Origin: Oscillospiraceae bacterium
GTDB taxonomy: Bacteria; Bacillota; Clostridia; Oscillospirales; CAG-272
Length of the DNA stretch: 64,000 nucleotides
Direction: 5' to 3'
Assembly (NCBI GenBank): GCA_015064505.1
Contig: SVSB01000001.1
Location: 56,826-120,825, forward strand
Position 1 is the stretch's first letter. Every line of letters starts with the position of its first letter. The translations under genes and the position numbers were made by a program. The notes below the pieces were generated by a model. That model made no database searches and had not been told where the DNA came from. It saw only the letters and a list, made by a program, of their open reading frames with translations. Of the stretch, positions 1 to 11,222 are shown piece by piece.

Positions 1-1697
1 GGTCCGAGGTGGGCAGCTCGTACGTTCTCTCCGACGGCACGCAGGCATTCCTGCCCAACAAGGCGTATCAGGTAGATATCCGCATCAAGGCAAAGACGGG
101 ATATGAATTTGCCACTGATTCTTTCGGCATCGTTTCCACGGCTGTCACCGTCAACGGTAAGAGCGCATCCGTCTCCGGAAACAAGAACGAAATTCTCATT
201 ACCTGCGAGTTCCCCGCTACGGGTAACCTGGCCATTGGCAAGATAGGAGTTACGGACATTGAACTACCCGCCGAGGAAAGCACCCCCGATTACAACGTAA
301 CTTACTTAAACGTCAACTACGGCGCCGCCAATTACAACAACGCAACCACGAAGAACGGTATTTCCTGGTACAACGAAACTGATAGCAAGGTCATGTCCAC
401 CACCGACAAGTTTGAGGCAGGCAAGACCTATACTGTGCAGATCACGATCTGGACCAACGAGGGCTATGAGTTCCTATATGATTTGGGCGAGGTAAACGTG
501 GACGGTACCGTCAACGGCGAGAAGGCCGAGGTAAGCTCGCGCCACAACGAGGAAGTTACGCTTTCCTACAGCTTTCCGAAGGTAGTTAAGCACAAGCACT
601 CTCCCATAAAGGTGGACGAAGTGAAAGCAACCTGTAAGGAAGAAGGCAAAAAGGCGTATTACTACTGTTCCGAATGCGGCAAGATCTTCGAGGATAGCAA
701 GTGTACCATCGATATCTACGACGTCAACACTTGGGGAACGATCGAAAAGCTTGAGCATACCGGCGGCAAGGCGACCTGCGACACCCGTGCGATCTGCAAA
801 AACTGCGGTGAATACTACGGCGATCTTGCGGAACACAACTTCGGAAGCACGTGGGATTATAAGGACGCATTGGGCCACGCACACAAATGTAAGGTTTGCG
901 GCGTCATCGATACCGTTATTCCTCACGGCGGAGGAACCGCAAAGTGCGGAGAACTGGCAAAATGCGCAGAGTGCAAGACCGAATACGGCGAAGTGATGCA
1001 GCATCAGTGGAGCAAAACTCCCGAATACACCGATTCCAAGGGACACGCATATATATGCACCGTTTGCGGCGATCACGACGATATCGTGAAGCACTCTCCC
1101 GGCCCGGAGGCAACCGAGACCTCCTCCCAAAACTGCACCGTGTGCAATTACGTGATCACTCCCGCAAAGCAGCATAAGCACACCCTTACCAAGGTTGAAA
1201 AGACCGATGCCACCTGCACGACAGCAGGCCAAGAACAGCACTACGTCTGCGACGGATGCGGCAAGCTTTTCAGCGACAGCAAGGGAAACACGGAGATCAC
1301 GGACAAGGACAGTCTGGTCATCCCCGCCACAGGTCACAAGGATTCCGCGTGGAAGTCCGATGCTGACGTGCATTGGAAAGAATGCACCGTTAAGGGCTGC
1401 GGTGAGCTGACCGTAGAAAAAGGATCACACGAATTCAACAAGGCAGGCAAATGTACCGTTTGCGGATACGTTTCCGAAGATGAAACCGACGAGCCCAAGA
1501 CAACGGACAGCGCCGCCGAAGACGATACGACCGTCCCCGACGAACCCGATGATACCACGGAAGTAAATGACCCCGCAGACGATAACGAAAGCAACGCGGT
1601 AATGTGGATCGTTCTTATTGCTTCCGGTGTATTAGCCGTTGCTTGTATCGCTATCGTTGCAATAGTGCTCGTGAAAAAGAATAAGAAAAAATCATGA
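1..1697 (+). CDS. 5'-truncated cell-surface protein with Cys/His-rich (HxH..TC..G..CxxC) repeats, acidic linker and C-terminal membrane anchor
   Basis: Frame is open to the window edge. Repeated ATC/CxxCG/H modules, D/E/T/P-rich linker (EPDDTT), hydrophobic helix followed by KKNKKKS. Confidence 0.8.
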   Translation, partial: SEVGSSYVLSDGTQAFLPNKAYQVDIRIKAKTGYEFATDSFGIVSTAVTVNGKSASVSGNKNEILITCEFPATGNLAIGKIGVTDIELPAEESTPDYNVTYLNVNYGAANYNNATTKNGISWYNETDSKVMSTTDKFEAGKTYTVQITIWTNEGYEFLYDLGEVNVDGTVNGEKAEVSSRHNEEVTLSYSFPKVVKHKHSPIKVDEVKATCKEEGKKAYYYCSECGKIFEDSKCTIDIYDVNTWGTIEKLEHTGGKATCDTRAICKNCGEYYGDLAEHNFGSTWDYKDALGHAHKCKVCGVIDTVIPHGGGTAKCGELAKCAECKTEYGEVMQHQWSKTPEYTDSKGHAYICTVCGDHDDIVKHSPGPEATETSSQNCTVCNYVITPAKQHKHTLTKVEKTDATCTTAGQEQHYVCDGCGKLFSDSKGNTEITDKDSLVIPATGHKDSAWKSDADVHWKECTVKGCGELTVEKGSHEFNKAGKCTVCGYVSEDETDEPKTTDSAAEDDTTVPDEPDDTTEVNDPADDNESNAVMWIVLIASGVLAVACIAIVAIVLVKKNKKKS

Positions 1698-1714
1698 AAC
1701 CGCGAGGTGAACCC

Positions 1715-2281
1715 ATGAAATGGCTTTTCCTCGGGCTTGGAGTCGCATTTGCCGCCCTGATCTGCGGCATCGCGGCATTCCGCCGAAACCTTCCCGAAAA
1801 AACCAGCGAAGATATAGACGGCGGCGTTGTCAAACGCTACCGGACCGATATGCCGAAGGTAATTGAATCTACCGAAATCGTGAGCTTCCAATGCGTGATC
1901 TCTTTGATTGCCGCGTGTGAAGCAGAAGGCTTGGGACACCGCGTATATAAGCTTGCCGCCGAAGTGCGTGACGGCGAGGTGCTTGTAAAATACGATTGGC
2001 GTGAGCGCGGCGGCAAAAGCGACAGGGCTGAATATACGGCTGAGGCGGATTTTATGGTGCGCCTGCAAAAAATCGTTTCCGATTACGATCTTGCAAGTCA
2101 AAACGGATATTACCATAACGTCAGCGGTCTGCCCGATATGTACGGAGGAAGTTTGGATATCGTATACGCCACCGACGAACGAATTCATATCCACGATAAC
2201 CAGAGTGGGATTCTGCCGCCCGAAGCCGAAAGGGAGCTTATTTTGCTGTTCGGCGCGGCAACGAAGCTTGAACGCGAATGA
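1715..2281 (+). CDS. Hypothetical protein with N-terminal membrane anchor
   Basis: GAGGTG RBS before ATG 1715; N-terminal hydrophobic stretch WLFLGLGVAFAALICGIAAF. Confidence 0.7.
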   Translation: MKWLFLGLGVAFAALICGIAAFRRNLPEKTSEDIDGGVVKRYRTDMPKVIESTEIVSFQCVISLIAACEAEGLGHRVYKLAAEVRDGEVLVKYDWRERGGKSDRAEYTAEADFMVRLQKIVSDYDLASQNGYYHNVSGLPDMYGGSLDIVYATDERIHIHDNQSGILPPEAERELILLFGAATKLERE

Positions 2282-2297
2282 ATAAGGAGGAATCTGA

Positions 2298-2861
2298 ATG
2301 TCAATTTTTGATAAACTGAAGAAAAACGTACAAACTGCGGTGAGATCTGCCGCAACGGCTGCTTTTGCAAGCGAGGAGACCTTCACGTTTGCGGCACTTC
2401 CCGAAAGTCTTGCCGAGATGAAGGCATTGCCGGAAGCATCCCTTGCCAGCCCCTTTGCAACGGCGGCTCTTACCGTTTGCGCGCTGTGCGCGTATGCTGC
2501 AGATAAGTCCATCGGCACGGAAATGCTCAATTATCTGCGCGGTCCCCGTCCGCTGTCCAATCACGATATCTCTTTCCTGAACGATCGCTTCAGCGAAGTG
2601 CGCTACGTTCCCTTCTCCTACTTCAAGGGTGCCGTTCCCGCCAACGATTACACGCCCGACACACCCTTTACCGTCACCGTCACAAGCGGTCCCTATTCCG
2701 ACGCAAACGAAGGCTATAAGAAGCTCTATATAAAAAGCGGCGGCGCTGACAGCCCGCGCGAGATAGTCCTGAGAAGGCTTGGGGACGGAAGATGGATGCT
2801 GTGGGATCAGTTTCTGCTTGTGAGCATCCGCAAGTCGGGATCCGACGATCCGTGGGCGTGA
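2298..2861 (+). CDS. Conserved hypothetical protein (DUF6935-like)
   Basis: AGGAGG RBS. Motifs LRGPRPLS, SYFKGAxPxNDY, GADSPR and C-terminal DPWA recalled from a clostridial DUF family. Confidence 0.65.
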   Translation: MSIFDKLKKNVQTAVRSAATAAFASEETFTFAALPESLAEMKALPEASLASPFATAALTVCALCAYAADKSIGTEMLNYLRGPRPLSNHDISFLNDRFSEVRYVPFSYFKGAVPANDYTPDTPFTVTVTSGPYSDANEGYKKLYIKSGGADSPREIVLRRLGDGRWMLWDQFLLVSIRKSGSDDPWA

Positions 2862-3331
2862 GAATACGGATACTGACGGCCGTTATGATATTTACTGCGC
2901 TGTTTGGTTTGTTCGGATGCAACGGAGGGGGCAAAAAGACGGTCACTTCCGTAGAGGCGGTGACGCTCGTCCTGCAAACGATGCGAGGGAGCTGCGTATA
3001 CAAGGTTGAGGGCAACGGAGACGCAAAGGAGCTGAGGCGATATCGGGAAATCTACCGCAGCGAAGCAGTGGAGCTTGTGCTTGAGCTGAGCGTTCCCTGC
3101 GATGCGCAAAAGCTGACCGAGCTTATGAATGCCTGCGGTATCCTTCGTTGGGACGGCTTTCACGGCAAGCATCCAAAAAACGTCTCCGACGGAACCTCGT
3201 TCCGCTTTGAAGCCACGGTAAACGGCGGACAGACGATCCGCGCTGAAGGTTCTGCGAATTTCCCCAAAGGCTACAACGAATTTGTCAGCGCTCTGAATGC
3301 GATGCTTGCAGAGCACGAAAAGACCGAATAA
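2858..3331 (+). CDS. Putative lipoprotein
   Basis: GTG start overlaps the upstream TGA (GTGA); signal peptide ending in lipobox LFGC. Confidence 0.7.
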   Translation: MRIRILTAVMIFTALFGLFGCNGGGKKTVTSVEAVTLVLQTMRGSCVYKVEGNGDAKELRRYREIYRSEAVELVLELSVPCDAQKLTELMNACGILRWDGFHGKHPKNVSDGTSFRFEATVNGGQTIRAEGSANFPKGYNEFVSALNAMLAEHEKTE

Positions 3332-3403
3332 CGGAGCTGCGGCAACGGGTAATTTCTGCTCAAATGCGGAAAGCCGCGCAAGTAACGAATAAAATACGGA
3401 AGC

Positions 3404-3468
3404 GGGGAACCTCGGTTCCCCCCTTCTCAAAGTCCTTCTCTCCCAATGAGAGGAGGACTTTGAGAAGG
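3404..3468. repeat. Two adjacent intergenic hairpins (8-bp and 21-bp stems)
   Basis: GGGGAACC-tc-GGTTCCCC, then CCTTCTCAAAGTCCTTCTCTC-ccaat-GAGAGGAGGACTTTGAGAAGG (one G.T pair). Confidence 0.7.
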
Positions 3469-3515
3469 AAAATTCTTCAAAGCAAACACAAATCACAAAT
3501 AAGGGGGCATATACG

Positions 3516-3950
3516 ATGCGTTATGTTGGAAAATGGGTCTTTCACTCCATTGGAGCGGTGACGGATGCCGATGAACCGGTATATCTTAATGCCGAGGAGT
3601 ATCTGAAATCTCCAATGCCGTATATCGACGAAACGGATGAAGAAGCGGTTGCAGGCGAGCTTCGGGAGAGAAAATCCATGATCGGAATGCAAATAGAGAT
3701 CTGCGAGGACGGAAAGCTGTACACGCTGATGCCTCTTCCCGAAGGCGTTACCAAAGAGGAGGTCGATGCAGCCGTTGCCGCCGGTGAGATAATGCTGCGA
3801 GGAGGCATGATGACTAACGGTCCCGCATCGTGGGAGGAACGGGACGGCGTGCTGTGGTATACCACCGAGCTCAGCGAGGACGGGTGGACGAGAGGCTCGG
3901 ACGACGGCTTTGTTTTCTTCATGACCGTACGGTTTGCAAAAGCCGAATGA
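3516..3950 (+). CDS. Hypothetical protein (acidic)
   Basis: AAGGGGG RBS, 144-aa ORF co-oriented with its neighbours. Confidence 0.7.
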   Translation: MRYVGKWVFHSIGAVTDADEPVYLNAEEYLKSPMPYIDETDEEAVAGELRERKSMIGMQIEICEDGKLYTLMPLPEGVTKEEVDAAVAAGEIMLRGGMMTNGPASWEERDGVLWYTTELSEDGWTRGSDDGFVFFMTVRFAKAE

Positions 3951-3965
3951 TCAAGGTGGCGGCTT

Positions 3966-4391
3966 ATGAGTGTTTTCGATACCAAAAAATTCCGCGTGAC
4001 GGTGCCTGAGGGCTGGATGGCGTTCTGCGGCACCGACAGCGGCGGAAAAACCACACCTAAGAAGGTACATATTTATAAAGGGATATCCCTTCAAACGGAT
4101 ATTTTTACCCACGCGGGCATTACGGTCTGCTACTTCGGTAAGGAGGACCCTTACCTTTCACCGAAGAGCTTTTACGAAAACGTTACGGATATGGAGCCGC
4201 TCTCCCTCGGACCGTATATCTGGAACGGATATACCTGCACGAGTATCGGATATCCGTATACGATGTTAGACGCAAAAAAGGACGGATGCGTCCTTCAGGT
4301 AATGATCCTCATGAAAAACGGAGATCATGAAATCTCACTTAACGATGCGGACGTGAGACTCATAATCGGGAGTCTTGCGCTGTCTGAATAA
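3966..4391 (+). CDS. Hypothetical protein
   Basis: AAGGTGG RBS, 141-aa ORF 15 bp after the previous stop. Confidence 0.7.
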   Translation: MSVFDTKKFRVTVPEGWMAFCGTDSGGKTTPKKVHIYKGISLQTDIFTHAGITVCYFGKEDPYLSPKSFYENVTDMEPLSLGPYIWNGYTCTSIGYPYTMLDAKKDGCVLQVMILMKNGDHEISLNDADVRLIIGSLALSE

Positions 4392-4498
4392 CGTCTTTTA
4401 AAACACACGGACGAGGAGTGAGGGTTTTTGCGGTTTTGCGGTAACACAGATCTCCCTGCGGCGGAAAAGCCCAACGGGAGTTACGGAAGGAGAACAAA

Positions 4499-7400
4499 AT
4501 GAATCAGAAAATGAGAAGAATATGGAGTATACTGCTCTGCTTTTTGCTGTTGATCGGAATATTTCCGAGATATACACAGCATAACGAATTTCACAGTCTT
4601 GCCGAGCTGGAATTATCTTTCGACGGTCACGACGGTCACGGTCACGAAGATCACGGTCACGACGGTCACGGTCACGAGGATCACGATCACGAAGGTCACG
4701 GTCACGGTGATCAAGACGACCACGACCGTGAGGAGCTTGATTCCCGCGCTGCGTTCGATCTGTTATCGGTTTTCGAGGATATTCTTGAGTTTTCGCTGTC
4801 ACTTTTTGCAACGCCCGTATACGCCGCCTACGAGGACGGCGTGGAGTGCGAATACTGCGGCGGCTGGCGTTACGACGATTGGAAATGTGACAACGGCGAC
4901 CACTGCGGCGAGGGTGCCGACGGCGACTGCTACGAGGAGCATCACTGCGGATACTGCGGTGCCTGCGAGGATGATAACGAGCTGTGCGACGATTGCGGCA
5001 ACTGTCTTGACGAATGCTGCGAGTGCGACGAAAAGTGCCGCGGATGCTATTCAACGAGCGGCGACGTGTGCGACGTATGTGGAGAAAAATGCACGGAATG
5101 TGTGGATTTCATCTGCGATGACTGCGGCATCTGTGCCGATTGTGCGGGCAACGACCTGTACTGCTCCGAATGTATGCTGTGTATCGGCTGTGCCGATTGG
5201 ATATGCTACTGCGGCGGTGGCTGCTCGGAATGCACAACGGGCTGCGAGCAATGCTATGAAAAGTGCATGGTCTGTGCAGAAGACGAGATCTGTGGCGACT
5301 GCGGAACCTGCTTTGACTGTCTCGGCGGTGACGGTAACTACTGCTCTGAATGTCTGCTGTGTAAATTCTGTGTTGAATACATATGTGAATGCGGCAGAGG
5401 CTGTTCCGAATGTGTACTGATCTGTGAGCAATGCCAGGAAAAGTGCGAGCAATGCGCCGACGGCGGAATTTGCCAGGACTGCGGTGTTTGTTTTGACTGC
5501 GTGGGCGGTGACGGCAACTTCTGTCAGAACTGTGAGCTTTGCAAATTCTGCGTTGAATACATCTGCACCGGCTGCGGTGAGGGTTGCTCGGAATGTGCCA
5601 TAATCTGTTCGGAATGCGGCGAGAAGTGCGAAAGCTGTGCGGACGACGAGCTGTGCGGCGAGTGCGGGGTATGCTTTGCTTGCCGCGGAGGAGAGGGTAA
5701 TTACTGTTCTGACTGCGGTTTATGCAAAATGTGCGTGGATTACGTCTGCGCCTGCGGAAACGGATGCTCGGAGTGCTCCTACGTATGCCCCGAATGCGGC
5801 GAAAAATGTTCAGCCTGCGCCGAGGAAGAGATCTGCATAGAATGCGGTACCTGCTTTGACTGCGTGGGCGGTGAGGGCAACTTCTGTTCCTCATGCGGCT
5901 ACTGTAAAAACTGCGTCGACTACATCTGCTACTGCGGCGAAGGATGCTCGGAATGCGCTATTATCTGCGTGGCGTGTAACGAAAAATGTGAAAAATGCGC
6001 CGATGACGAGCTGTGCGCCGATTGCGAGCGCTGTTTTGATTGCGCAGGCGGCGACTTCTGTGCCGAATGCGGCTTATGCGGTGAATGCGTTGAGGTTCTG
6101 TGCGCCTGCGGCAACGGATGTAATAATTGTGCAGAAGTGATCTGCGAGAGCTGCGGTGAAAAATGCTCAAACTGTGCCGAGGATGAGCTGTGCACGGAAT
6201 GCGGCACCTGCCGCGATTGCGTGGGCGGCGACGGCAACTTCTGCGACACCTGCTCAATTTGTAAAAACTGCGTGGATTATATCTGCGTGGGATGCAGCGA
6301 GGGCTGCTCCAATTGCGCGGAGATCTGTCCCGAGTGCGGCGAAAAATGCGAAAACTGCGCAGCGGATGAGCTTTGTGCAGACTGCGGCGTCTGCCGCGAC
6401 TGCGTGGGCGGCGACGGCAACTTCTGCGACACCTGCTCTCTCTGCAAAAACTGCGTGGACTACGTCTGCTCCGAGTGCGGTCAGGGCTGCTCCAATTGCG
6501 CGGAGGTCTGTCCCGAGTGCGGTGAAAAATGTAATCAATGCGCAAACGACGAGATGTGCTCGGATTGCGGAATCTGCGTGGATTGTGTCGGTGCGGAGAA
6601 TTTTTGCGTGATGTGCTCACTCTGCCATGAATGCGTGGAGGCGGTGTGCGCCTGCGGAGAGGGCTGCTCCAACTGTGCCACCGTATGCTCGGATTGTAAC
6701 GAAAAATGCTCTAACTGCTCCGACGGTGAGGTGTGCACGGAATGCGGCAAGTGCGTTGACTGTGCGGGTGCGGACAGCTTCTGCATAAACTGCGGACTCT
6801 GCTCGGACTGCGGCGTTATCTGCCCTTGCGGCGAGGGATGCGAAAACTGTGCGGATCTCTGCCCTGACTGCGGCGAAAAATGCTCCAACTGCACGGACGA
6901 ATTCTGTGTGTCCTGCGATATTTGCCGTGAATGTGCGGAGGATATCTTCTGCGAGGATTGTTATCAGTGCGGCGAATGCACGGAAATATGCGATGACTGC
7001 GGCACCGTCTGTGCCGACTGTGCCGAGAGCGTGTGCGAGGAGTGCGGCAAATGCTCCGGATGTATTGATGAATTCTGTCCCGACTGCGGCGTCTGCATTG
7101 ACTGTGCCGACAGCATGTGCCGCGACTGCTATTACTGCGGCGACTGTACCGATAACATCTGCGTTGACTGCGGTGAATACTGCTCCGACTGTGCCGAGTT
7201 CTGCGCGGAGTGCGAAAAATGCGAGAACTGCGTGGAGATATGCCCCGATTGCGGGCTGTGCGAGGATTGCTGTGCAGAAGCTGCGGCGGAATTCGGTTGC
7301 AGCCACGGTATCTGCCCCGAAAGTGACGCCTGGAAAAGCCATTACTGCGCCGAGGGCGGTCACTGCGTCGGCAAATCAAGCAAGCTTGAGCACGATAAGG

Positions 7401-8509
7401 ACGAACACTGGACGGCCTGCGGCGAGGGATGCAATATCAGGCTGAATTCCGAATTGCATACCTATGGCGAAGGCAAAATCACGAAGGAAGCAACGAAAAC
7501 TGCTGACGGCGTAATGGAATTCACCTGTTCCGTCTGCGGCTTTGTAACGGAAAAAGCTATTCCGAAGCTGACAGGCGGACATACACACGAATATACCTCC
7601 GTTGTAAACAAACCCACCTGTGAATCGGGCGGATATACGACGCATACCTGCGAGTGCGGCCATACTTATACGGATGCGTATACGCCTGCCGTAAAGCACA
7701 ATTACGTTCACAAGCATACCGAATCCGAGCACTGGCAGGAATGTGAATACTGCCACGCTACCACCGAAAAGGCGGCTCACAAGCTGGGAGCCTGGATAAC
7801 CGTTGTGAAGGCGGGCTTCACCTTTGAGGGTGAAAAAGAGCGCAAATGCAACGTATGTGAATATGCGATCAAAGAGGCTATTCCCAAGCTCACCGTTCCC
7901 GGCGAAAAAGTGGTTATCGTTATCCTGGATTATGACAAGTACGTGCCTTCTACCGACGGCGGTACTTCTGCTCCCGATAGCGGAACGTCTGCTCCCGACG
8001 GTTCGGGTGAAATCGGCTCGGATGTTACCACGGAGCTCCCAAGCGGCGGCGATTCAACGCCCGGGGGAAACACTCCCACAACCAAGGAGCTTCTGACCAA
8101 AGGCGAAGAAAACACCGTTCCCGCACTTCCCACCCTTCCCCCGACAGAGGATGGTAATATTTTTGAGGGATGGATAAACAAAGCAACGGGCGAACCGGTC
8201 AAGAAAGGCGATAAGATCAGCGAAAACATTGAGATCGTGCCTGTGTGGAAGGATTGCGGCGAGGGCAATCATAAGGATGCCAATAAAGATAACGGCTGTG
8301 ATGCTTGCGGATATATTCTCGTGAAGTCCTCAGAGCCCGACGATACAACCGCACCCGACAGCGATAAAAACGATGAACAGAAGGGCGAAGATCCGTCGCC
8401 TGATAAAAACGGCTTCCCCACCTGGGTGATCGTTCTCGTTTCCTGCTTTGGCGGAGTGATCGGCGTGTGCGGCGTTATACTTGCGGTCGTTCTGCGAAAA
8501 AAGAAATAA
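4499..8509 (+). CDS. Giant cysteine-rich, membrane-anchored surface protein (His-rich N-terminus, about 50 CxxC-x(2-3)-CxxC modules, H/C repeats, InlB B-repeat-like segment, C-terminal TM)
   Basis: AAGGAG RBS; 1336-aa ORF; N-terminal hydrophobic segment; ~60-aa, 16-Cys repeat units; C-terminal TM followed by RKKK. Confidence 0.9.
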   Translation: MNQKMRRIWSILLCFLLLIGIFPRYTQHNEFHSLAELELSFDGHDGHGHEDHGHDGHGHEDHDHEGHGHGDQDDHDREELDSRAAFDLLSVFEDILEFSLSLFATPVYAAYEDGVECEYCGGWRYDDWKCDNGDHCGEGADGDCYEEHHCGYCGACEDDNELCDDCGNCLDECCECDEKCRGCYSTSGDVCDVCGEKCTECVDFICDDCGICADCAGNDLYCSECMLCIGCADWICYCGGGCSECTTGCEQCYEKCMVCAEDEICGDCGTCFDCLGGDGNYCSECLLCKFCVEYICECGRGCSECVLICEQCQEKCEQCADGGICQDCGVCFDCVGGDGNFCQNCELCKFCVEYICTGCGEGCSECAIICSECGEKCESCADDELCGECGVCFACRGGEGNYCSDCGLCKMCVDYVCACGNGCSECSYVCPECGEKCSACAEEEICIECGTCFDCVGGEGNFCSSCGYCKNCVDYICYCGEGCSECAIICVACNEKCEKCADDELCADCERCFDCAGGDFCAECGLCGECVEVLCACGNGCNNCAEVICESCGEKCSNCAEDELCTECGTCRDCVGGDGNFCDTCSICKNCVDYICVGCSEGCSNCAEICPECGEKCENCAADELCADCGVCRDCVGGDGNFCDTCSLCKNCVDYVCSECGQGCSNCAEVCPECGEKCNQCANDEMCSDCGICVDCVGAENFCVMCSLCHECVEAVCACGEGCSNCATVCSDCNEKCSNCSDGEVCTECGKCVDCAGADSFCINCGLCSDCGVICPCGEGCENCADLCPDCGEKCSNCTDEFCVSCDICRECAEDIFCEDCYQCGECTEICDDCGTVCADCAESVCEECGKCSGCIDEFCPDCGVCIDCADSMCRDCYYCGDCTDNICVDCGEYCSDCAEFCAECEKCENCVEICPDCGLCEDCCAEAAAEFGCSHGICPESDAWKSHYCAEGGHCVGKSSKLEHDKDEHWTACGEGCNIRLNSELHTYGEGKITKEATKTADGVMEFTCSVCGFVTEKAIPKLTGGHTHEYTSVVNKPTCESGGYTTHTCECGHTYTDAYTPAVKHNYVHKHTESEHWQECEYCHATTEKAAHKLGAWITVVKAGFTFEGEKERKCNVCEYAIKEAIPKLTVPGEKVVIVILDYDKYVPSTDGGTSAPDSGTSAPDGSGEIGSDVTTELPSGGDSTPGGNTPTTKELLTKGEENTVPALPTLPPTEDGNIFEGWINKATGEPVKKGDKISENIEIVPVWKDCGEGNHKDANKDNGCDACGYILVKSSEPDDTTAPDSDKNDEQKGEDPSPDKNGFPTWVIVLVSCFGGVIGVCGVILAVVLRKKK
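4631..4720 (+). repeat. Three copies of a 30-bp coding repeat encoding His-rich DGHGHEDHGH
   Basis: gacggtcacggtcacgaagatcacggtcac and two degenerate copies in tandem. Confidence 0.85.
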
Positions 8510-8630: not shown

Positions 8631-11222
8631 CTATTTAGCGGTGCGAATATTCAGACTTACGATCTGCGCATCTCCCGAAAGGCTTATGCCGTTGCTTGCT
8701 TCATCGGGATATATCATTGCGGATATTACCGCCTCGCCATTTCCGCCGAACACCTCAACGCTTACCGTATCAACGTATACGCGCAAAGCGATAAGGCCGT
8801 TTTCATCGGGCTTAAGTCTTGCGGAAAAGCTCTTGCCGGTGTAGGTATAACCGCTGTCCCTTGCAAGCTCGCCGGATCTTGAAGTATCCAGGACGAGCAG
8901 CGAAGATGACTTGTTGTATATAAGCCTTGTTGCCTCACTCTCGCCCTTACGCAGCTCTATAACGACGCGGGAGGCGTTTTCCATGTCAAAGATGCCCTCA
9001 AGATAATACGCATTGCTTTCAACGGACGGAATATCAGCCTTTCCTATTTCCTCATTCTTCATTTCAAAGGCCTTACCGCCGAACAAAGAACCAACCTCCT
9101 CAACGGGATTCTGGATCAGTATCGGAACCCCTTCCGAGGAGATAAGCGCAACCTCATAGGGCAGGGACATTATGCCGTCCCAGGCCTTATCTGCCTTAAG
9201 AAGCGGCGCGCTCTTGTCAACCATCCAGTTAAGCAGTATTCTTCTTCCCTGCGGATCGTTAAAGAAGCTTTGGGTAGCGTAAACACCCTTCACGGAGGAG
9301 GTACCGTTAAAATCCCTCTTATCATATTCGGCAAAAAACTCGTACAGTCCGTTTCCGTTCTTTTCAAGAGCTCCCACGTAATATGACACTCCCGCGCACG
9401 AAAGCACCCATTTCACGTTGTTTTCGTCTCCATCCACGGCAAGCGGGAACAAATCGGGGCACTCACTGTAAATTGCTCCGCCGCTCTTTGTCTTTGCTGC
9501 GCTGTTTGGGGTCCAGTGTATAAGATCGGGAGAGGTGAAGAGCTGAACGCGACCTCCGCCGATTATCATCAGCCACACACCGCCGTTTTCGGCAGTTTCA
9601 TCTTCTATCCAAATGACCTTTGGATCGCGGAACGCCTTATTTTCGGTGGTTATGTATTTGCTTGTTTCTATAACGGCACCGTAGAGCTTGTAGGTATAGC
9701 CTCCGTCGTGGGAATACGCAAGCATCTGCGTTTCCTTACCGCCCGAGCTGCGCGTAAATACAGTAACGAGCCTGTTTTCGGGCGCTATGCTGTCATTAAA
9801 AAGACCAGAGGTGTTATTTTTATCCACAACGGCACTACCCGATATGGTATGTCCGAAGCTCATTGCCGCATTTTGCTCCGTCCAGTTCACCAGATCCTTT
9901 GATACAGCGTGACCCCAGCTTGCGCGGACCTTATCGCGCAAAATGCCCTCGTGCCGCTGATAATACATATGATATTCGCCCGTTGCGGCGTTGTAAACAA
10001 GGCCGTTCGGGTCGGCAAGGAAGTTCTTTTTGGGCGAATAATGATACACGGGGCGGTACACGTCGCCGCCTGAAAGAGGAGACGAACCGTTGATTGAGTT
10101 TATCTCCGCCAAAAGATCGCTTTCCGCACTTCTTCCCTCGGAAATATCTCCGCATATCTTCGTTACGCTTCCAAATGACGAAGTATCGCACTTCAGCTTT
10201 GATATGAGGTATGCAAAATTATCCTGCTCACAGTACAGATTTACCGCACCGCATTTTTTCATACTGTCCTCTGCGGGTCCCCAAGGGTTGGGGCAAGTGC
10301 CGGAAATGCCAAATGAGGAGCCCTGAACCGTAGTAAAGCTTTTTTCGGCATCAAAGCGGTCGGTTACGTACAGATTGAGCACGCCCGTACAGCGATCGGA
10401 GGTTCCGCGCATACCGTTGATGAAAACGTTGATCTTTCCTCCGTCTATAAGCACCTCGCCATTTGCATAGGTATAAGCACCTTCACCCCAAGGGCCGACA
10501 AAAACCTTGTTTACCTCCGCCGTGCCTGCTATGGTGAGATAGATCGTGCCGTTATAATTACGGTCCTTTCCGTATCTGGAGCCGCCCGTTATCTCGGTGA
10601 ACACACCGCTTTTTACGGTAACGTGTACGTCCTTTTCCTTGTTAGCGCCTCCGTTACTGCCACCTATAAGGATAACCTCGTTGAAAGTACCTGAGAAATC
10701 CACGCCTTCCTCAAAGGTTATGCAATTAAAATCCGCAATAAATACCGCCTTGCCGTTTATCTTTACGGGCAAGTTTTCAAAGACAGTATCACCGGAAAGA
10801 TAATATCTGCATCCGTTTTTAAAGCTTATGGAGCCGTTATAGGTTTTGCCGCCGTAGCTTGCGGTAATAACGACCCTGCCACCGTGGGCGGGCTGACGGT
10901 AGTCGCCGCCTATTTCAATGGGATTCATAATAACTACGCAGCTATCCTCCGCACAAGCGGAAATTGCCTCGTCAATCCCCTTAAAAGGCTCTTGCTCCGA
11001 ACCGTTTCCCCCGTTTCCCTTGGGGTCAACGTAAAACACGTTTTCCATGATCTCCTCCGTTTTCTCCGTCGTTGCGGCTTCCGTTTTCGGTTCAGCCGTC
11101 GTTTCGGGTATAGCCGTGGTTAACGGCGCTTTTGTGGTTATTGCATCCGTTTTTTCACCGCCGCACGCCGCAGCAGAGAACGCAATAAAACAAATAAGCA
11201 AGCATACCGGCAATTTTTTCAT
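8631..11222 (-). CDS. Lipoprotein GH32 beta-fructosidase/levanase with Thr-rich linker and extra N-terminal beta-rich domain
   Basis: Lipobox AAAC; GH32 motifs (A)DPNG, WGHAVSKDL, SGSAVVD, FRDP, ECP; C-terminal D..SVEVF beta-sandwich. Confidence 0.9.
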   Translation of the reverse strand: MKKLPVCLLICFIAFSAAACGGEKTDAITTKAPLTTAIPETTAEPKTEAATTEKTEEIMENVFYVDPKGNGGNGSEQEPFKGIDEAISACAEDSCVVIMNPIEIGGDYRQPAHGGRVVITASYGGKTYNGSISFKNGCRYYLSGDTVFENLPVKINGKAVFIADFNCITFEEGVDFSGTFNEVILIGGSNGGANKEKDVHVTVKSGVFTEITGGSRYGKDRNYNGTIYLTIAGTAEVNKVFVGPWGEGAYTYANGEVLIDGGKINVFINGMRGTSDRCTGVLNLYVTDRFDAEKSFTTVQGSSFGISGTCPNPWGPAEDSMKKCGAVNLYCEQDNFAYLISKLKCDTSSFGSVTKICGDISEGRSAESDLLAEINSINGSSPLSGGDVYRPVYHYSPKKNFLADPNGLVYNAATGEYHMYYQRHEGILRDKVRASWGHAVSKDLVNWTEQNAAMSFGHTISGSAVVDKNNTSGLFNDSIAPENRLVTVFTRSSGGKETQMLAYSHDGGYTYKLYGAVIETSKYITTENKAFRDPKVIWIEDETAENGGVWLMIIGGGRVQLFTSPDLIHWTPNSAAKTKSGGAIYSECPDLFPLAVDGDENNVKWVLSCAGVSYYVGALEKNGNGLYEFFAEYDKRDFNGTSSVKGVYATQSFFNDPQGRRILLNWMVDKSAPLLKADKAWDGIMSLPYEVALISSEGVPILIQNPVEEVGSLFGGKAFEMKNEEIGKADIPSVESNAYYLEGIFDMENASRVVIELRKGESEATRLIYNKSSSLLVLDTSRSGELARDSGYTYTGKSFSARLKPDENGLIALRVYVDTVSVEVFGGNGEAVISAMIYPDEASNGISLSGDAQIVSLNIRTAK

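What the first reader, a model, noticed from the sequence alone, without database searches (positions are those of the whole stretch)
4847..7273. Exported protein with an ~800-aa poly-cysteine rod: about 50 tandem four-Cys modules
Seen: the core of the 1336-aa ORF is almost entirely CxxCxxCxxC, CxxCxxxCxxC and CxCxxxCxxC modules joined by short acidic linkers. They form about 10 higher-order ~60-aa units of 16 Cys (e.g. CPECGEKCENC-AADEL-CADCGVCRDC-VGGDGNF-CDTCSLCKNC-VDYV-CSECGQGCSNC). A manual count gives more than 200 Cys. Two units are near-identical in DNA at a 183-bp offset (6209 vs 6392), indicating recent tandem expansion. The protein has an N-terminal export signal and a C-terminal TM/KKK anchor. 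Knowledge: the spacing is neither the c-type heme motif (CxxCH is essentially absent) nor the canonical ferredoxin CxxCxxCxxxCP, and bacterial metallothioneins are tiny and cytoplasmic. Inference: in an anaerobe these thiols more plausibly bind metal than form ~100 disulfides. The protein could be a surface poly-Zn/Fe or Fe-S filament (metal sponge, redox buffer or non-heme electron wire) or a VSP-like rigid coat stalk. I recognise no described family with this architecture.
Basis: partly seen in the sequence, partly recalled or inferred. Interest (0 to 1): 0.9.

Follow-up and report, generated by a model that had tools for sequence, protein, structure and literature searches.

The report
Cysteine-packed surface rod protein, gut Clostridia
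An uncultured gut anaerobe encodes a membrane-anchored surface protein whose core is a long rod of about 54 four-cysteine modules; it belongs to an undescribed family with a confidently predicted but unmatched fold, and is probably held together by bound metal ions rather than disulfide bonds.

Summary
ORF 4499-8509 (+) encodes 1336 aa with 238 Cys. Residues 191-787 are ten units of 58-61 aa with exactly 16 Cys each.

The family is rare: 63 of 1.84 billion cluster representatives match. It was found only in gut or rumen metagenome bins, almost all labelled Clostridia. Relatives carry SLH, CWB2 or dockerin modules instead of the membrane anchor, so the rod is extracellular.

Indirect evidence favours metal (probably Zn) sites over disulfides:
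- No DsbA, DsbB or VKOR was found in six carrier genomes.
- 21% of units have an odd Cys count.
- A lost Cys is replaced by His, Asp, Glu or Asn.
- Cys loss goes together with gain of a His at one fixed position: 33 of 54 units against 5 of 320.

Function is untested. An Fe-S or electron-wire reading is disfavoured by Sec-type export and the absence of TatC. The family looks undescribed and deserves biochemical work.

The parts
4485..4492 (+). Shine-Dalgarno sequence GGAAGGAG, 6 nt upstream of the ATG at 4499
   Evidence: Read directly from the sequence.
4499..8509 (+). Complete ORF of 1336 aa (P0001) with 238 Cys; single copy in its genome
   Evidence: The only match in the 2.46-Mb, 88.7%-complete genome.
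4499..4576 (+). N-terminal basic and hydrophobic segment (aa 1-26), read as a Sec-type signal or anchor
   Evidence: Kyte-Doolittle peak at aa 4-26. Homologues have equivalent N-termini without an RR pair. No predictor was run.
4623..4724 (+). His/Asp/Glu/Gly tract (about aa 42-76, 12 His in 40 aa), encoded by a 15/30-nt tandem repeat whose length differs between strains
   Evidence: TRF period 15/30, 85-91% matches. Repeat family D8. His count. A +15 nt insertion at 4633 in run X2 and a 39-nt skip at 4681-4721 in run X1. Shorter His-rich stretches sit at the same place in homologues.
4826..5068 (+). Conserved N-terminal 'head' (aa 110-190), an irregular Cys/His/Trp-rich module that precedes the rod
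   Evidence: Conserved in distant relatives. Several representatives match the query best in this part (query residues 1-103 of the 809-aa query), for example dockerin-bearing P0155.
5069..6859 (+). Ten regular 58-61-aa units (aa 191-787) with 16 Cys each. Each unit has four 4-Cys modules: CxxCxExCxxC, CxxCGxCxDC, CxxCxxCxxC and Cx(x)CGxGCxxC
   Evidence: Segmentation. DNA periodicity of 177-183 bp. Unit consensus. Two-unit AlphaFold2 model with pLDDT 95.8 and pTM 0.79.
6152..6517 (+). The two most similar adjacent units (7 and 8), the youngest duplication in the array
   Evidence: 83.6% nt identity over 183 nt and 47/61 aa identical.
6860..7273 (+). Irregular proximal end of the rod (aa 788-925): 4-Cys modules joined by 3-5-residue linkers
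7274..7903 (+). Post-rod region (aa 926-1135) with conserved Cys/His/Trp positions. It resembles modules in other surface proteins, including the neighbouring ORF 3-1697
   Evidence: Nearly invariant C, H and W columns. Weak BLASTP similarity to the neighbouring ORF, E 0.002-0.004. No Pfam family.
8063..8221 (+). Sub-threshold Flg_new-like (Listeria-Bacteroides repeat) segment, aa 1189-1241
   Evidence: Pfam PF09479 E 0.026 (whole protein) and 0.0044 (C-terminal fragment), 15-17.6 bits against a cut-off of 27. The Atlas's nearest clusters are Flg_new proteins, score 0.85.
8411..8506 (+). C-terminal transmembrane helix followed by RKKK (aa 1305-1336)
   Evidence: Kyte-Doolittle peak of 2.7. The same anchor module occurs in the neighbouring ORF (36% identity over 100 aa, E 2e-8). 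SLH, CWB2 or dockerin takes its place in relatives.

Best explanation
What it is. The gene encodes a Sec-exported protein tethered to the membrane at its C-terminus. Its distal two-thirds form a rigid, extremely acidic rod made of a previously undescribed ~60-aa repeat domain.

How it is held together. Each unit is held together mainly by its 16 Cys. I infer that these form four tetrahedral metal-thiolate sites per unit, most likely Zn(II) picked up after export. That gives roughly 54 sites in the whole rod. On this reading the metal sites take the place that disulfides have in oxidising habitats, because these strict gut anaerobes show no disulfide-forming enzymes.

Other parts. The His-rich tract at the mature N-terminus may capture metal for loading the sites. 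The C-terminal Cys/His modules, the Flg_new-like segment and the Pro/Ser/Thr linkers are ordinary surface-protein parts that span the wall.

Likely role. Structural: a protease-resistant, polyanionic fibril or spacer that carries the conserved N-terminal head away from the cell. Metal buffering would come as a by-product.

Shown versus inferred. Shown: the anatomy, conservation, extracellular context, rarity and lack of known relatives. Inferred: the metal ligation, the identity of the metal, the rigidity and the role.
For: 1. Architecture and selection.
- Ten 16-Cys units lie within an 809-aa core that is 26.8% Cys.
- All Cys columns are invariant or at least 90% conserved in 150 two-unit segments that share 39-83% identity with the query.

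2. A defined fold.
- The two-unit AlphaFold2 model built on that alignment has pLDDT 95.8 and pTM 0.79.
- It has almost no helix or sheet, as expected for a knuckle-stapled domain.

3. Extracellular location.
- Of 45 relatives scanned, 11 carry SLH, 2 CWB2, 4 dockerin, 12 Flg_new and 3 CBM_X2.
- P0001 has only two hydrophobic segments, one at each end.

4. No disulfide machinery found.
- DsbB, VKOR, DSBA and Thioredoxin_4 were not found in the own genome, which is 88.7% complete.
- DsbB, VKOR and Thioredoxin_4 were not found in 5 of 5 other carrier genomes. The positive controls for these searches matched.
- Daniels et al. (PMC2823432, passages read) report that most Firmicutes exclude Cys from exported proteins. 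They also report that anaerobic Gram-positives do not favour even Cys numbers in secreted proteins.

5. Odd Cys counts are tolerated.
- Of 374 unique complete units, 294 have 16 Cys, 54 have 15, 24 have 17, one has 14 and one has 18.

6. Lost Cys are replaced by ligand-type residues.
- In 17 hand-curated variant classes, the residue at the lost Cys position is His 3, Asp 4, Glu 5, Asn 2 and other 3.
- That is 14 of 17, against 36% expected from rod composition (binomial P about 1e-4). His alone is 3 of 17 against 0.7% expected (P about 2e-4).

7. A compensatory His appears when a Cys is lost.
- A His directly before the ninth Cys occurs in 33 of 54 15-Cys units but in only 5 of 320 other units.
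- 8 of the 9 units that lack the twelfth Cys have this His, and the ninth has His at the lost position itself.
- A His can replace a metal ligand. It cannot replace a disulfide partner.

8. Distant subfamilies mix Cys and His.
- Their rods are 3-6% His.
- HCxxCxxH occurs 14 times in 9 of 63 representatives, against a shuffle mean of 2.4 and a maximum of 8 in 200 shuffles.

9. Knuckle-type motifs.
- There are 36 CxxCG and 6 CPxCG. That this is the rubredoxin or zinc-knuckle consensus is recalled knowledge.
- The only weak sequence or fold neighbours are Zn-binding domains: RpoM ribbon, ZZ, LIM, PHD, FYVE and RING. All are non-significant.

10. An adjacent His tract with variable length.

11. 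Presence in RNA libraries.
- Contigs from two metatranscriptome runs of one study cover parts of the ORF at 97-100% identity.
Against: - No metal was measured and no model coordinates were available. The Cys geometry (about 2.05 A S-S for a disulfide against about 3.6 A for a metal site) could not be read.
- 79% of units have an even count of 16 Cys, which also fits eight disulfides.
- The rod already has 173 Asp+Glu against 32 Lys+Arg. About 54 Zn(Cys)4 sites would add roughly -108 more charge, which is unusual for structural Zn sites.
- A general test failed. His is not enriched at the +/-3 register next to CxxC pairs in the rods of 58 of the 63 representatives (112 observed, 113.7 expected, z -0.2).
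- The substitution classes were curated by hand, and the units are related. The 33 His-bearing 15-Cys units come from about six lineages, so the P values overstate the evidence.
- Absence of four Pfam families in incomplete metagenome bins does not exclude another oxidase or spontaneous oxidation.
- All similarities to Zn fingers are above E = 0.03 by sequence and E = 1.7 by fold, so they are not evidence on their own.
- RNA-library contigs at depth 2-5 do not prove transcription.
- The structural role is a guess based on architecture alone.
Confidence: 0.5

Rival explanations
1. The rod is laddered with disulfides. The roughly 217 core Cys form about 108 disulfides, spontaneously or through an unrecognised oxidase. 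This would give a protease-resistant coat protein comparable to the CxxC-rich surface proteins of Giardia.
For: - The rod is extracellular.
- 294 of 374 units have an even count of 16 Cys.
- The extreme acidity would not be made worse by disulfides.
- Giardia VSPs and CRMPs show that gut-lumen organisms use CxxC-rich membrane-anchored coats that protect against luminal proteases (PMC13671459, passages read).
- Some Clostridia do have working DsbA or VKOR enzymes (PMC12453122, abstract read).
Against: - DsbB, VKOR, DSBA and Thioredoxin_4 were not found in the own genome. DsbB, VKOR and Thioredoxin_4 were not found in five other carriers.
- The habitat is anoxic and reducing (animal gut, rumen, faeces).
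- 78 of 374 units have an odd Cys count.
- A lost Cys is replaced by His, Asp, Glu or Asn in 14 of 17 variant classes and is accompanied by a His gain at a fixed site. A broken disulfide gives no reason for either pattern.
- Related rods contain HCxxCxxH modules.
Confidence: 0.22
2. Metal storage or sequestration is the primary function. The chemistry is the same as in the best explanation, but the rod serves as a giant surface metallothionein. It would scavenge scarce Zn for uptake, or soak up excess Zn, Cu or Cd (for example from supplemented animal feed) outside the cell. The N-terminal His tract would act as the capture antenna.
For: - The Cys content (26.8%) is in the metallothionein range. 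The typical metallothionein range is recalled knowledge.
- There is a His-rich tract whose length varies between strains.
- The polyanionic surface would attract cations.
- The distribution is patchy and accessory-like: 0 of 8 same-genus genomes, and 9 of 200 other genomes of the family.
- Carriers come from livestock and other animal guts.
Against: - The unit is a highly conserved domain with a confident fold and conserved non-Cys residues (Glu6, the Gly residues, the hydrophobic residue before each module). Metallothioneins are plastic by comparison.
- No metal transporter, metal sensor or efflux gene lies within about 5 kb, and no neighbour is conserved beyond close relatives.
- No Pfam metallothionein family matches, even at E <= 10.
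- Tight structural sites would exchange metal poorly.
Confidence: 0.15
3. The rod is a redox-active iron rod. The modules bind Fe as rubredoxin-type Fe(Cys)4 centres, or as Fe-S clusters that self-assemble in the sulfide-rich lumen. They would form a non-haem chain for extracellular electron transfer or redox buffering.
For: - The CxxCxxCxxC spacing is close to the ferredoxin CxxCxxCxxxC motif, and the CxxCG/CPxCG knuckles resemble rubredoxin (the motif lore is recalled).
- The metal sites would be closely spaced along a rod. This is an inference, not a measurement.
- Replacement of Cys by Asp or His is also known for Fe-S ligands (recalled).
Against: - Homologues have a Sec-type signal without a twin-arginine pair, and TatC was not found. 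Folded, cofactor-loaded export is therefore unlikely, and no extracytoplasmic Fe-S assembly system is known.
- CxxCxxCxxxCP occurs only twice.
- No Fer4 or rubredoxin Pfam hit at E <= 10.
- No ferredoxin-like fold match.
- No respiratory or electron-transfer genes nearby.
Confidence: 0.05
4. The repeats are substrates for post-translational Cys chemistry, such as thiazole formation or thioether and sactionine cross-links, as in Cys-repeat RiPP precursors.
For: Cys-Xaa-Xaa repeats occur in heterocycloanthracin-type bacteriocin precursors (PMC2674419; only the search listing and the start of the abstract were seen).
Against: - The protein is 1336 aa with surface-anchor modules, not a short precursor.
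- No radical-SAM, cyclodehydratase or other maturase family was found among the ten neighbouring ORFs scanned.
- The unit has a conserved, confidently predicted globular fold.
Confidence: 0.02

Closest known systems
Giardia variant-specific surface proteins and cysteine-rich membrane proteins (VSP, CRMP/HCMP)
   Same: Both belong to gut-lumen organisms. Both have an N-terminal signal, a large extracellular region packed with CxxC (and CxC) motifs, a single C-terminal membrane helix and a very short basic tail. The Giardia proteins are thought to resist luminal proteases (PMC13671459, passages read). That VSPs bind Zn is recalled from older literature and was not seen here.
   Different: - Eukaryotic against bacterial.
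- About 12% Cys (recalled) against 27% in this rod.
- No Pfam VSP match, even at E <= 10.
- The tail is RKKK, not CRGKA.
- This rod is a strict 60-aa, 16-Cys tandem array.
- The gene is single-copy here, so there is no sign of antigenic variation.
Zinc knuckle and zinc ribbon domains, and cross-braced Zn fingers (PHD, FYVE, RING, LIM, ZZ)
   Same: CxxC/CxxCG knuckles grouped in fours, little regular secondary structure, and interchange of Cys and His in relatives. These domains are the only weak sequence and fold neighbours.
   Different: - The known domains are intracellular and are used singly or in small numbers.
- Here there are about 54 sites in one exported polypeptide, with four Cys inside 10-11 residues.
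Metallothioneins, including bacterial SmtA/BmtA and PmtA
   Same: Very high Cys content with CxC and CxxC motifs and thiolate metal binding. One paper reports PmtA on the bacterial surface (PMC11237414; only title and listing seen).
   Different: - Metallothioneins are small, about 7 kDa (stated in abstracts listed), mostly cytoplasmic and poorly conserved outside the Cys.
- This protein is 1336 aa, exported and anchored. Its repeat fold is rigidly conserved.
- No Pfam metallothionein hit.
Gram-positive wall-associated repeat proteins (SLH-, CWB2-, dockerin- or TM-anchored, with Flg_new, Ig-like or Fn3 modules)
   Same: The overall plan is the same: a signal peptide, tandem repeat modules, low-complexity linkers and a C-terminal anchoring module. 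Relatives carry exactly these Pfam modules.
   Different: The repeat itself is new. It is Cys-based rather than a beta-sandwich, it has no Pfam or NCBIfam model, and it sits at the distal end of the protein.
Polyferredoxins and multihaem cytochromes (protein electron wires)
   Same: Many closely spaced Cys motifs in one chain.
   Different: Only 2 CxxCxxCxxxCP and 2 CxxCH motifs. No Fer4 or cytochrome Pfam hits. A Sec-type signal, and TatC not found.

Membership tests
Giardia VSP (Pfam PF03302) | A match to the VSP profile with repeated CxxC motifs | tested here: not met
   No VSP hit for the whole protein at E <= 1 or for the fragments at E <= 10.
Giardia VSP (Pfam PF03302) | C-terminal TM helix followed by the conserved five-residue CRGKA tail | tested here: not met
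   A TM helix is present, but the tail is RKKK. The CRGKA feature is taken from PMC13671459.
Metallothionein (Pfam metallothionein families, bacterial SmtA type) | A small (<10 kDa) Cys-rich protein that matches a metallothionein profile | tested here: not met
   The protein is 1336 aa, and no metallothionein Pfam hit appears at E <= 10.
Metallothionein (function: thiolate metal clusters) | Stoichiometric binding of Zn, Cu or Cd by the Cys | not testable with these tools
   This needs ICP-MS or a spectroscopic titration of purified units.
4Fe-4S ferredoxin / polyferredoxin (Fer4 families) | Repeated CxxCxxCxxxCP motifs and a Fer4 profile match | tested here: not met
   2 motif matches among about 54 modules. 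No Fer4 hit. No ferredoxin-like fold match.
Multihaem c-type cytochrome | Multiple CxxCH haem-binding motifs | tested here: not met
   2 CxxCH in 1336 aa.
Zinc ribbon / zinc knuckle domain families | A significant profile or fold match to a known Zn-ribbon, PHD, FYVE, RING or LIM domain | tested here: not met
   - No Pfam hit.
- Best PDB profile E 0.032.
- Best Foldseek E 1.7.
- The protein may work like these domains without belonging to them.
Zinc ribbon / zinc knuckle domain families | Four Cys/His ligands per site, with ligand-type substitutions tolerated | tested here: inconclusive
   For:
- Lost Cys replaced by His, Asp, Glu or Asn in 14 of 17 variant classes.
- A coupled His gain in 33 of 54 units against 5 of 320.
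- HCxxCxxH enriched, 14 against 2.4.

Against:
- The overall His-register test was negative.
- No geometry and no metal data are available.
Flg_new / Listeria-Bacteroides repeat (PF09479) | A score above the gathering cut-off of 27 bits | tested here: not met
   15.1 bits (E 0.026) for the whole protein and 17.6 bits (E 0.0044) for the C-terminal fragment. 12 of 45 relatives do match.
Wall-anchored surface proteins (SLH, CWB2, dockerin) | Presence of one of these anchoring modules | tested here: not met
   P0001 has none and uses a TM helix. Relatives carry SLH (11 of 45), CWB2 (2 of 45) and dockerin (4 of 45).
Cys-repeat RiPP precursors (heterocycloanthracin / SCIFF type) | A short precursor next to a maturase gene (cyclodehydratase or radical SAM) | tested here: not met
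   The protein is 1336 aa, and none of the ten neighbouring ORFs carries such a family.

The most novel reading that the evidence does not exclude
The rod is an extracellular conductive or redox-buffering appendage without haem. After export into the anoxic, Fe(II)- and sulfide-rich gut lumen, its roughly 54 tetrathiolate modules load iron as rubredoxin-type centres or self-assembled Fe-S clusters. Spaced about a nanometre apart, these centres relay electrons along a fibril tens of nanometres long. This would be a new, cofactor-cheap route to extracellular electron transfer in Gram-positive fermenters.
Probability: 0.05. Interest if true: 0.95.

Novelty: new variant of a known kind. Interest (0 to 1): 0.72.

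Why it matters
Exported proteins of Firmicutes are known for avoiding cysteine (PMC2823432). This protein carries 238. If its roughly 54 Cys4 modules are metal sites, it would be the densest array of structural metal sites known to me in a single bacterial polypeptide (from my own knowledge; no search covered this claim).

It would also show how strict anaerobes stiffen extracellular proteins where disulfides are not available, by using metal staples in their place.

The unit is a compact 60-aa domain with a high-confidence predicted fold and no relative in the PDB. That makes it an easy target for expression, metal analysis and structure determination, and possibly a useful scaffold for binding metals.

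The family is confined to uncultured gut and rumen Oscillospirales. It is attached to cells through SLH, CWB2, dockerin or a TM anchor, so it is also a marker for a still unknown surface function in these communities.

Tried and rejected
- Pfam on the whole protein and on five fragments, at E up to 10, gave nothing for the rod. The only hits were MSSP at E 7.7 and sub-threshold Flg_new. NCBIfam gave only noise.
- PDB sequence searches gave nothing useful: rabphilin Zn finger at E 0.045 with the single sequence, and a best E of 0.032 with the profile.
- The first AlphaFold2 run (241 aa, 38 full-length homologues) was mediocre, pLDDT 69.4, and its Foldseek search was empty. A unit-level alignment solved this.
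- ESM Atlas on the whole protein pointed only to Flg_new surface proteins, score 0.85, below the reliable range. The rod alone gave no usable hit.
- The genomic neighbourhood gave no functional clue. The upstream genes (DUF6935 and unannotated small ORFs) are syntenic in only 7-15 of 45 loci, and those are the close relatives. The downstream GH32, DeoR and DUF218 genes are conserved in 0 of 45 loci, and GFO in 1 of 45 weakly.
- The promoter and terminator scans did not exceed the shuffle controls.
- The general His-register test was negative. Several apparent 'Cys13 losses' in the first column count were alignment shifts and were discarded.
- Parts of the ORF without RNA-library cover, and the joints with 21-26-nt sides in the repeats, were treated as uninformative.
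- Five literature searches found no description of such a protein.
- Complex prediction was not used, because no protein-protein binding is claimed.

Full report
**1. The observation**

The window has a single long ORF at 4499-8509 (+). A GGAAGGAG Shine-Dalgarno sequence lies at 4485-4492. The ORF translates into 1336 aa without stops.

It contains 238 Cys. There are 131 CxxC pairs but only 2 CxxCH and 2 CxxCxxCxxxCP.

Cutting the protein at the recurrent CxxCxE[KY]C anchor gives ten consecutive units of 58-61 aa at aa 191-787. Each has exactly 16 Cys, arranged as four 4-Cys modules joined by short acidic or Gly-rich linkers that end in a hydrophobic residue. Less regular 4-Cys modules flank the array on both sides.

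The DNA shows the same 177-183-bp period, with 60-72% identity between most units. The youngest pair, 6152-6334 and 6335-6517, is 83.6% identical in DNA and 47/61 identical in protein. 'Near-identical' is therefore too strong.

The rod has 173 Asp+Glu against 32 Lys+Arg. Only two segments are hydrophobic enough for a membrane helix: aa ~4-26, and aa ~1305-1335 followed by RKKK.

**2. Anatomy of the whole protein**

From the N-terminus the protein has:
- a signal or anchor segment;
- a His/Asp/Glu/Gly tract with 12 His in 40 aa, encoded by a 15/30-nt tandem repeat;
- a conserved irregular Cys/His/Trp 'head' at aa 110-190;
- the rod;
- a region of conserved Cys/His/Trp modules with no Pfam family;
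- Ser/Thr/Pro/Gly linkers;
- a sub-threshold Flg_new-like segment (15-17.6 bits against a cut-off of 27);
- a small Cys module;
- the TM helix.

The rod is therefore the distal part of the protein, and the ordinary surface-protein modules sit next to the anchor.

The length of the His tract differs between strains. One DNA run has an extra 15 nt at 4633, and another skips 39 nt at 4681-4721.

**3. Relatives and habitat**

A word-indexed search with aa 200-800 found 222 proteins. The close ones share 56-83% identity, are 1100-1300 aa long and have no Pfam domains. One carries a source name, a hypothetical protein of a 'Ruminococcaceae bacterium' MAG. The more distant ones, around 40% identity, carry SLH (PF00395) or CWB2 (PF04122) at the C-terminus.

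An exhaustive HMMER scan of 1.84 billion 50%-identity cluster representatives found 63 matches at E <= 1e-3, 29 at E <= 1e-10 and 7 at E <= 1e-30. The family is therefore rare.

I scanned 45 of these 63 representatives with Pfam. I left out the short entries, which are mostly fragments. The hits were Flg_new 12, SLH 11, Flg_new_2 7, dockerin 4, He_PIG 4, CBM_X2 3 and CWB2 2. Fn3, Big_2/3 and PKD occurred once each, and one protein had classical Zn-ribbon families. One search gives examples.

All of these are extracellular or wall-binding modules. Combined with the interchangeable anchor, this places the rod outside the cell.

In species-representative genomes, 335 stretches matched the search patterns, 47 encode a relative, and these give 45 distinct loci. 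By their titles:
- 11 are Oscillospiraceae;
- 9 are Clostridia;
- 8 are Acutalibacteraceae;
- 5 are Eubacteriales;
- 5 are 'Ca. Flemingiibacterium';
- 7 are others, including one 1.9-kb contig binned as Muribaculaceae.

All are metagenome bins or 'uncultured' records from human, ruminant and other animal guts.

The distribution is patchy. The rod was not found in 8 of 8 same-genus genomes. At E <= 1e-10 it was found in 9 of 200 other genomes of the same family, and in 9 of 97 genera when the own genome is counted. The gene is single-copy in its own genome, which is 88.7% complete.

Twenty run rows from 14 studies of animal gut or faecal metagenomes hold the gene or part of it.

The number of units varies. 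Most of the 151 proteins with unit matches have 8-11 units by HMM, and this protein has 12.

**4. No known family and no known fold**

No known family covers the rod:
- Pfam, for the whole protein at E <= 1 and for five fragments at E <= 10;
- NCBIfam;
- PDB sequences, with a best single-sequence E of 0.045 and a best profile E of 0.032;
- the ESM Atlas searched with the rod alone.

The first AlphaFold2 model, 241 aa with 38 sequences, reached only pLDDT 69.4. I then located two-unit segments in the fetched loci by HMM. From 375 candidate segments I kept 177 that shared less than 80% identity, and used the first 149 together with the window's units 7-8.

With this alignment the 122-aa model reached pLDDT 95.8 and pTM 0.79, with 119 residues at or above 90. 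It has almost no regular secondary structure: one 3-residue helix and isolated bridges per unit.

Most of the weak neighbours in both fold searches and in the profile search are Zn-binding domains: PHD, FYVE, RING, LIM, ZZ and the RpoM ribbon. This is a hint, not evidence. Five literature searches found no description of such a protein.

**5. Metal sites or disulfides?**

This is the central question.

Evidence for metal:

(a) No disulfide machinery was found. DsbB, VKOR, DSBA and Thioredoxin_4 were not found in the own genome. DsbB, VKOR and Thioredoxin_4 were not found in 5 of 5 other carrier genomes. The positive controls matched in each search. These genomes are incomplete bins, so this is 'not found', not 'absent'.

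(b) The habitat is the anoxic gut. Firmicutes generally exclude Cys from exported proteins, and anaerobic Gram-positives show no even-number Cys bias in secreted proteins (PMC2823432, passages read).

(c) Odd Cys counts are common. Of those 374, 294 have 16 Cys, 54 have 15, 24 have 17, one has 14 and one has 18.

(d) Lost Cys are replaced by ligand-type residues. I read all 54 of the 15-Cys units and collapsed them into 17 variant classes (one per protein group and module). The residue at the lost Cys position is His in 3, Asp in 4, Glu in 5, Asn in 2, and Ile, Tyr or Gly in 3. That is 14 of 17, against 36% expected from the rod's non-Cys composition (binomial P about 1e-4). His alone is 3 of 17 against 0.7% expected (P about 2e-4). 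The CxNGDGC and CxEGDGC variants always carry an Asp two residues after the replaced position (14 of 14 units).

(e) A His appears when a Cys is lost. A His directly before Cys9 is present in 33 of 54 15-Cys units but in only 5 of 320 other units. 8 of the 9 units that lack Cys12 have it, and the ninth has His at the Cys12 position itself. The 24 units that lack Cys6 have it too. The units are related, and these cases represent about six lineages, so the nominal Fisher P values (5e-8 and 9e-28) overstate the evidence. The direction is still clear: a His can take over a metal ligand position, but it cannot repair a disulfide.

(f) More distant subfamilies have rods with 3-6% His. HCxxCxxH modules occur 14 times in 9 of 63 representatives, against a shuffle mean of 2.4 and a maximum of 8 in 200 shuffles.

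(g) There are 36 CxxCG and 6 CPxCG knuckle motifs, and the His tract lies next to the rod.

Evidence against metal:
- The dominant even count of 16 Cys fits disulfides equally well.
- Thiolate sites would add about -108 charge to a rod that is already about -141.
- A general test for His enrichment at the +/-3 register beside CxxC pairs was negative (112 observed, 113.7 expected).
- Unknown oxidases or spontaneous oxidation cannot be excluded.

I put metal ligation at roughly 0.65-0.7 and an all-disulfide rod at roughly 0.2.

**6. Which metal, and what for?**

The homologues' signal peptides lack a twin-arginine pair, and TatC was not found. The chain should therefore cross the membrane unfolded through Sec and acquire metal outside the cell.

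This favours ions that bind spontaneously, with Zn(II) the most likely. It argues against enzymatically assembled Fe-S clusters. The motif counts and the lack of any ferredoxin-like match point the same way.

The unit's strong conservation outside the Cys (Glu6, the Gly residues and the hydrophobic residue before each module) and its confident rigid model look like a structural domain, not a plastic metallothionein. The module is also reused with many different anchors and partner domains.

My best reading is a metal-stapled, protease-resistant, polyanionic surface rod that carries the conserved N-terminal head away from the cell. Metal buffering or scavenging is a secondary or alternative role. 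I give the full statement a confidence of 0.5.

No neighbouring gene helps. The upstream genes are syntenic only among close relatives, the downstream genes are not conserved at all, and none encodes a transporter, a maturase or a redox protein.

**7. Expression**

Two metatranscriptome runs from one study hold 12-13% of the gene's sampled words. Their contigs cover pieces of the ORF at 97-100% identity:
- X20 at 6923-7130 and 7302-7483, with no mismatches;
- X19 at 6981-7401, with 6 mismatches.

Depth is 2-5. DNA carry-over in these libraries cannot be excluded, and no silent control stretch was assessed. This is weak support for expression.

**8. Verdict**

The finding is real and the family appears undescribed. 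It is a surface repeat protein, which is a known kind, built from a new Cys4-module domain with no sequence or structural relatives.

The chemistry and the function remain to be tested, and the experiments are straightforward.

Noticed in passing
window 3-1697 (+), open at the 5' end: This is a second surface protein with the same C-terminal plan as the Cys-rod protein: a small Cys module, an acidic Thr/Pro linker, a TM helix and a KKNKKKS tail (36% identity over 100 aa, E 2e-8). It also carries many Cys/His modules of the HxW...C..CG type and has no Pfam family. It is syntenic upstream of the rod gene in 11 of 45 loci with strong matches, and in 15 of 45 with any match.
   Followed up: partly
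window 4623-4724: The length of the His-rich tract differs between strains in public metagenomes. Run X2 has a +15 nt insertion at 4633 and run X1 has a 39-nt deletion at 4681-4721. This suggests slippage in the 15-nt repeat.
   Followed up: partly
window 1694-4391 (+): A block of small genes lies upstream of the rod gene: a 195-aa protein with an N-terminal TM segment, DUF6935, a 179-aa putative lipoprotein, and two proteins of about 142 aa without Pfam families. The block recurs upstream of the rod gene in 7-14 of 45 loci, all of them close relatives. Its function is unknown, and no operon link has been shown.
   Followed up: partly
window 8631-11222 (-): An 863-aa GH32 (fructan or sucrose hydrolase) protein has a ~390-aa N-terminal extension with no Pfam match. 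It is followed on the same strand by DeoR, DUF218 and GFO/IDH/MocA genes. None of these four genes has a clear match near the rod gene in the 45 related loci (0 for the first three; one weak GFO hit, 27% identity, E 5e-6, in L015).
   Followed up: no
proteins P0155 and P0174 (representative relatives; not in the window): A divergent subfamily has the same N-terminal head but a rod with about 6% His. It contains repeated HCxxCxxH modules and longer units, and ends in dockerin (P0155) or Big_3 plus Flg_new_2 (P0174). This suggests a wider superfamily of Cys/His rods, some of which are attached to cellulosomes.
   Followed up: partly
window 5069-6859, unit linker between modules 2 and 3: The conserved Gly-rich acidic loop GG[DE]GN[FY], just before module 3, loosely recalls Ca-binding GGxGxD turns. 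That resemblance is recalled and was not tested. The aromatic residue at its end is the position that becomes His when a Cys is lost.
   Followed up: partly
same-genus and same-family genomes (G001-G219): The rod gene is patchy. It was not found in 8 of 8 same-genus genomes. It is present at 74-83% identity in a few other genera of the family (G065, G136, G156). This pattern looks like repeated loss or horizontal spread, and I did not resolve which.
   Followed up: partly
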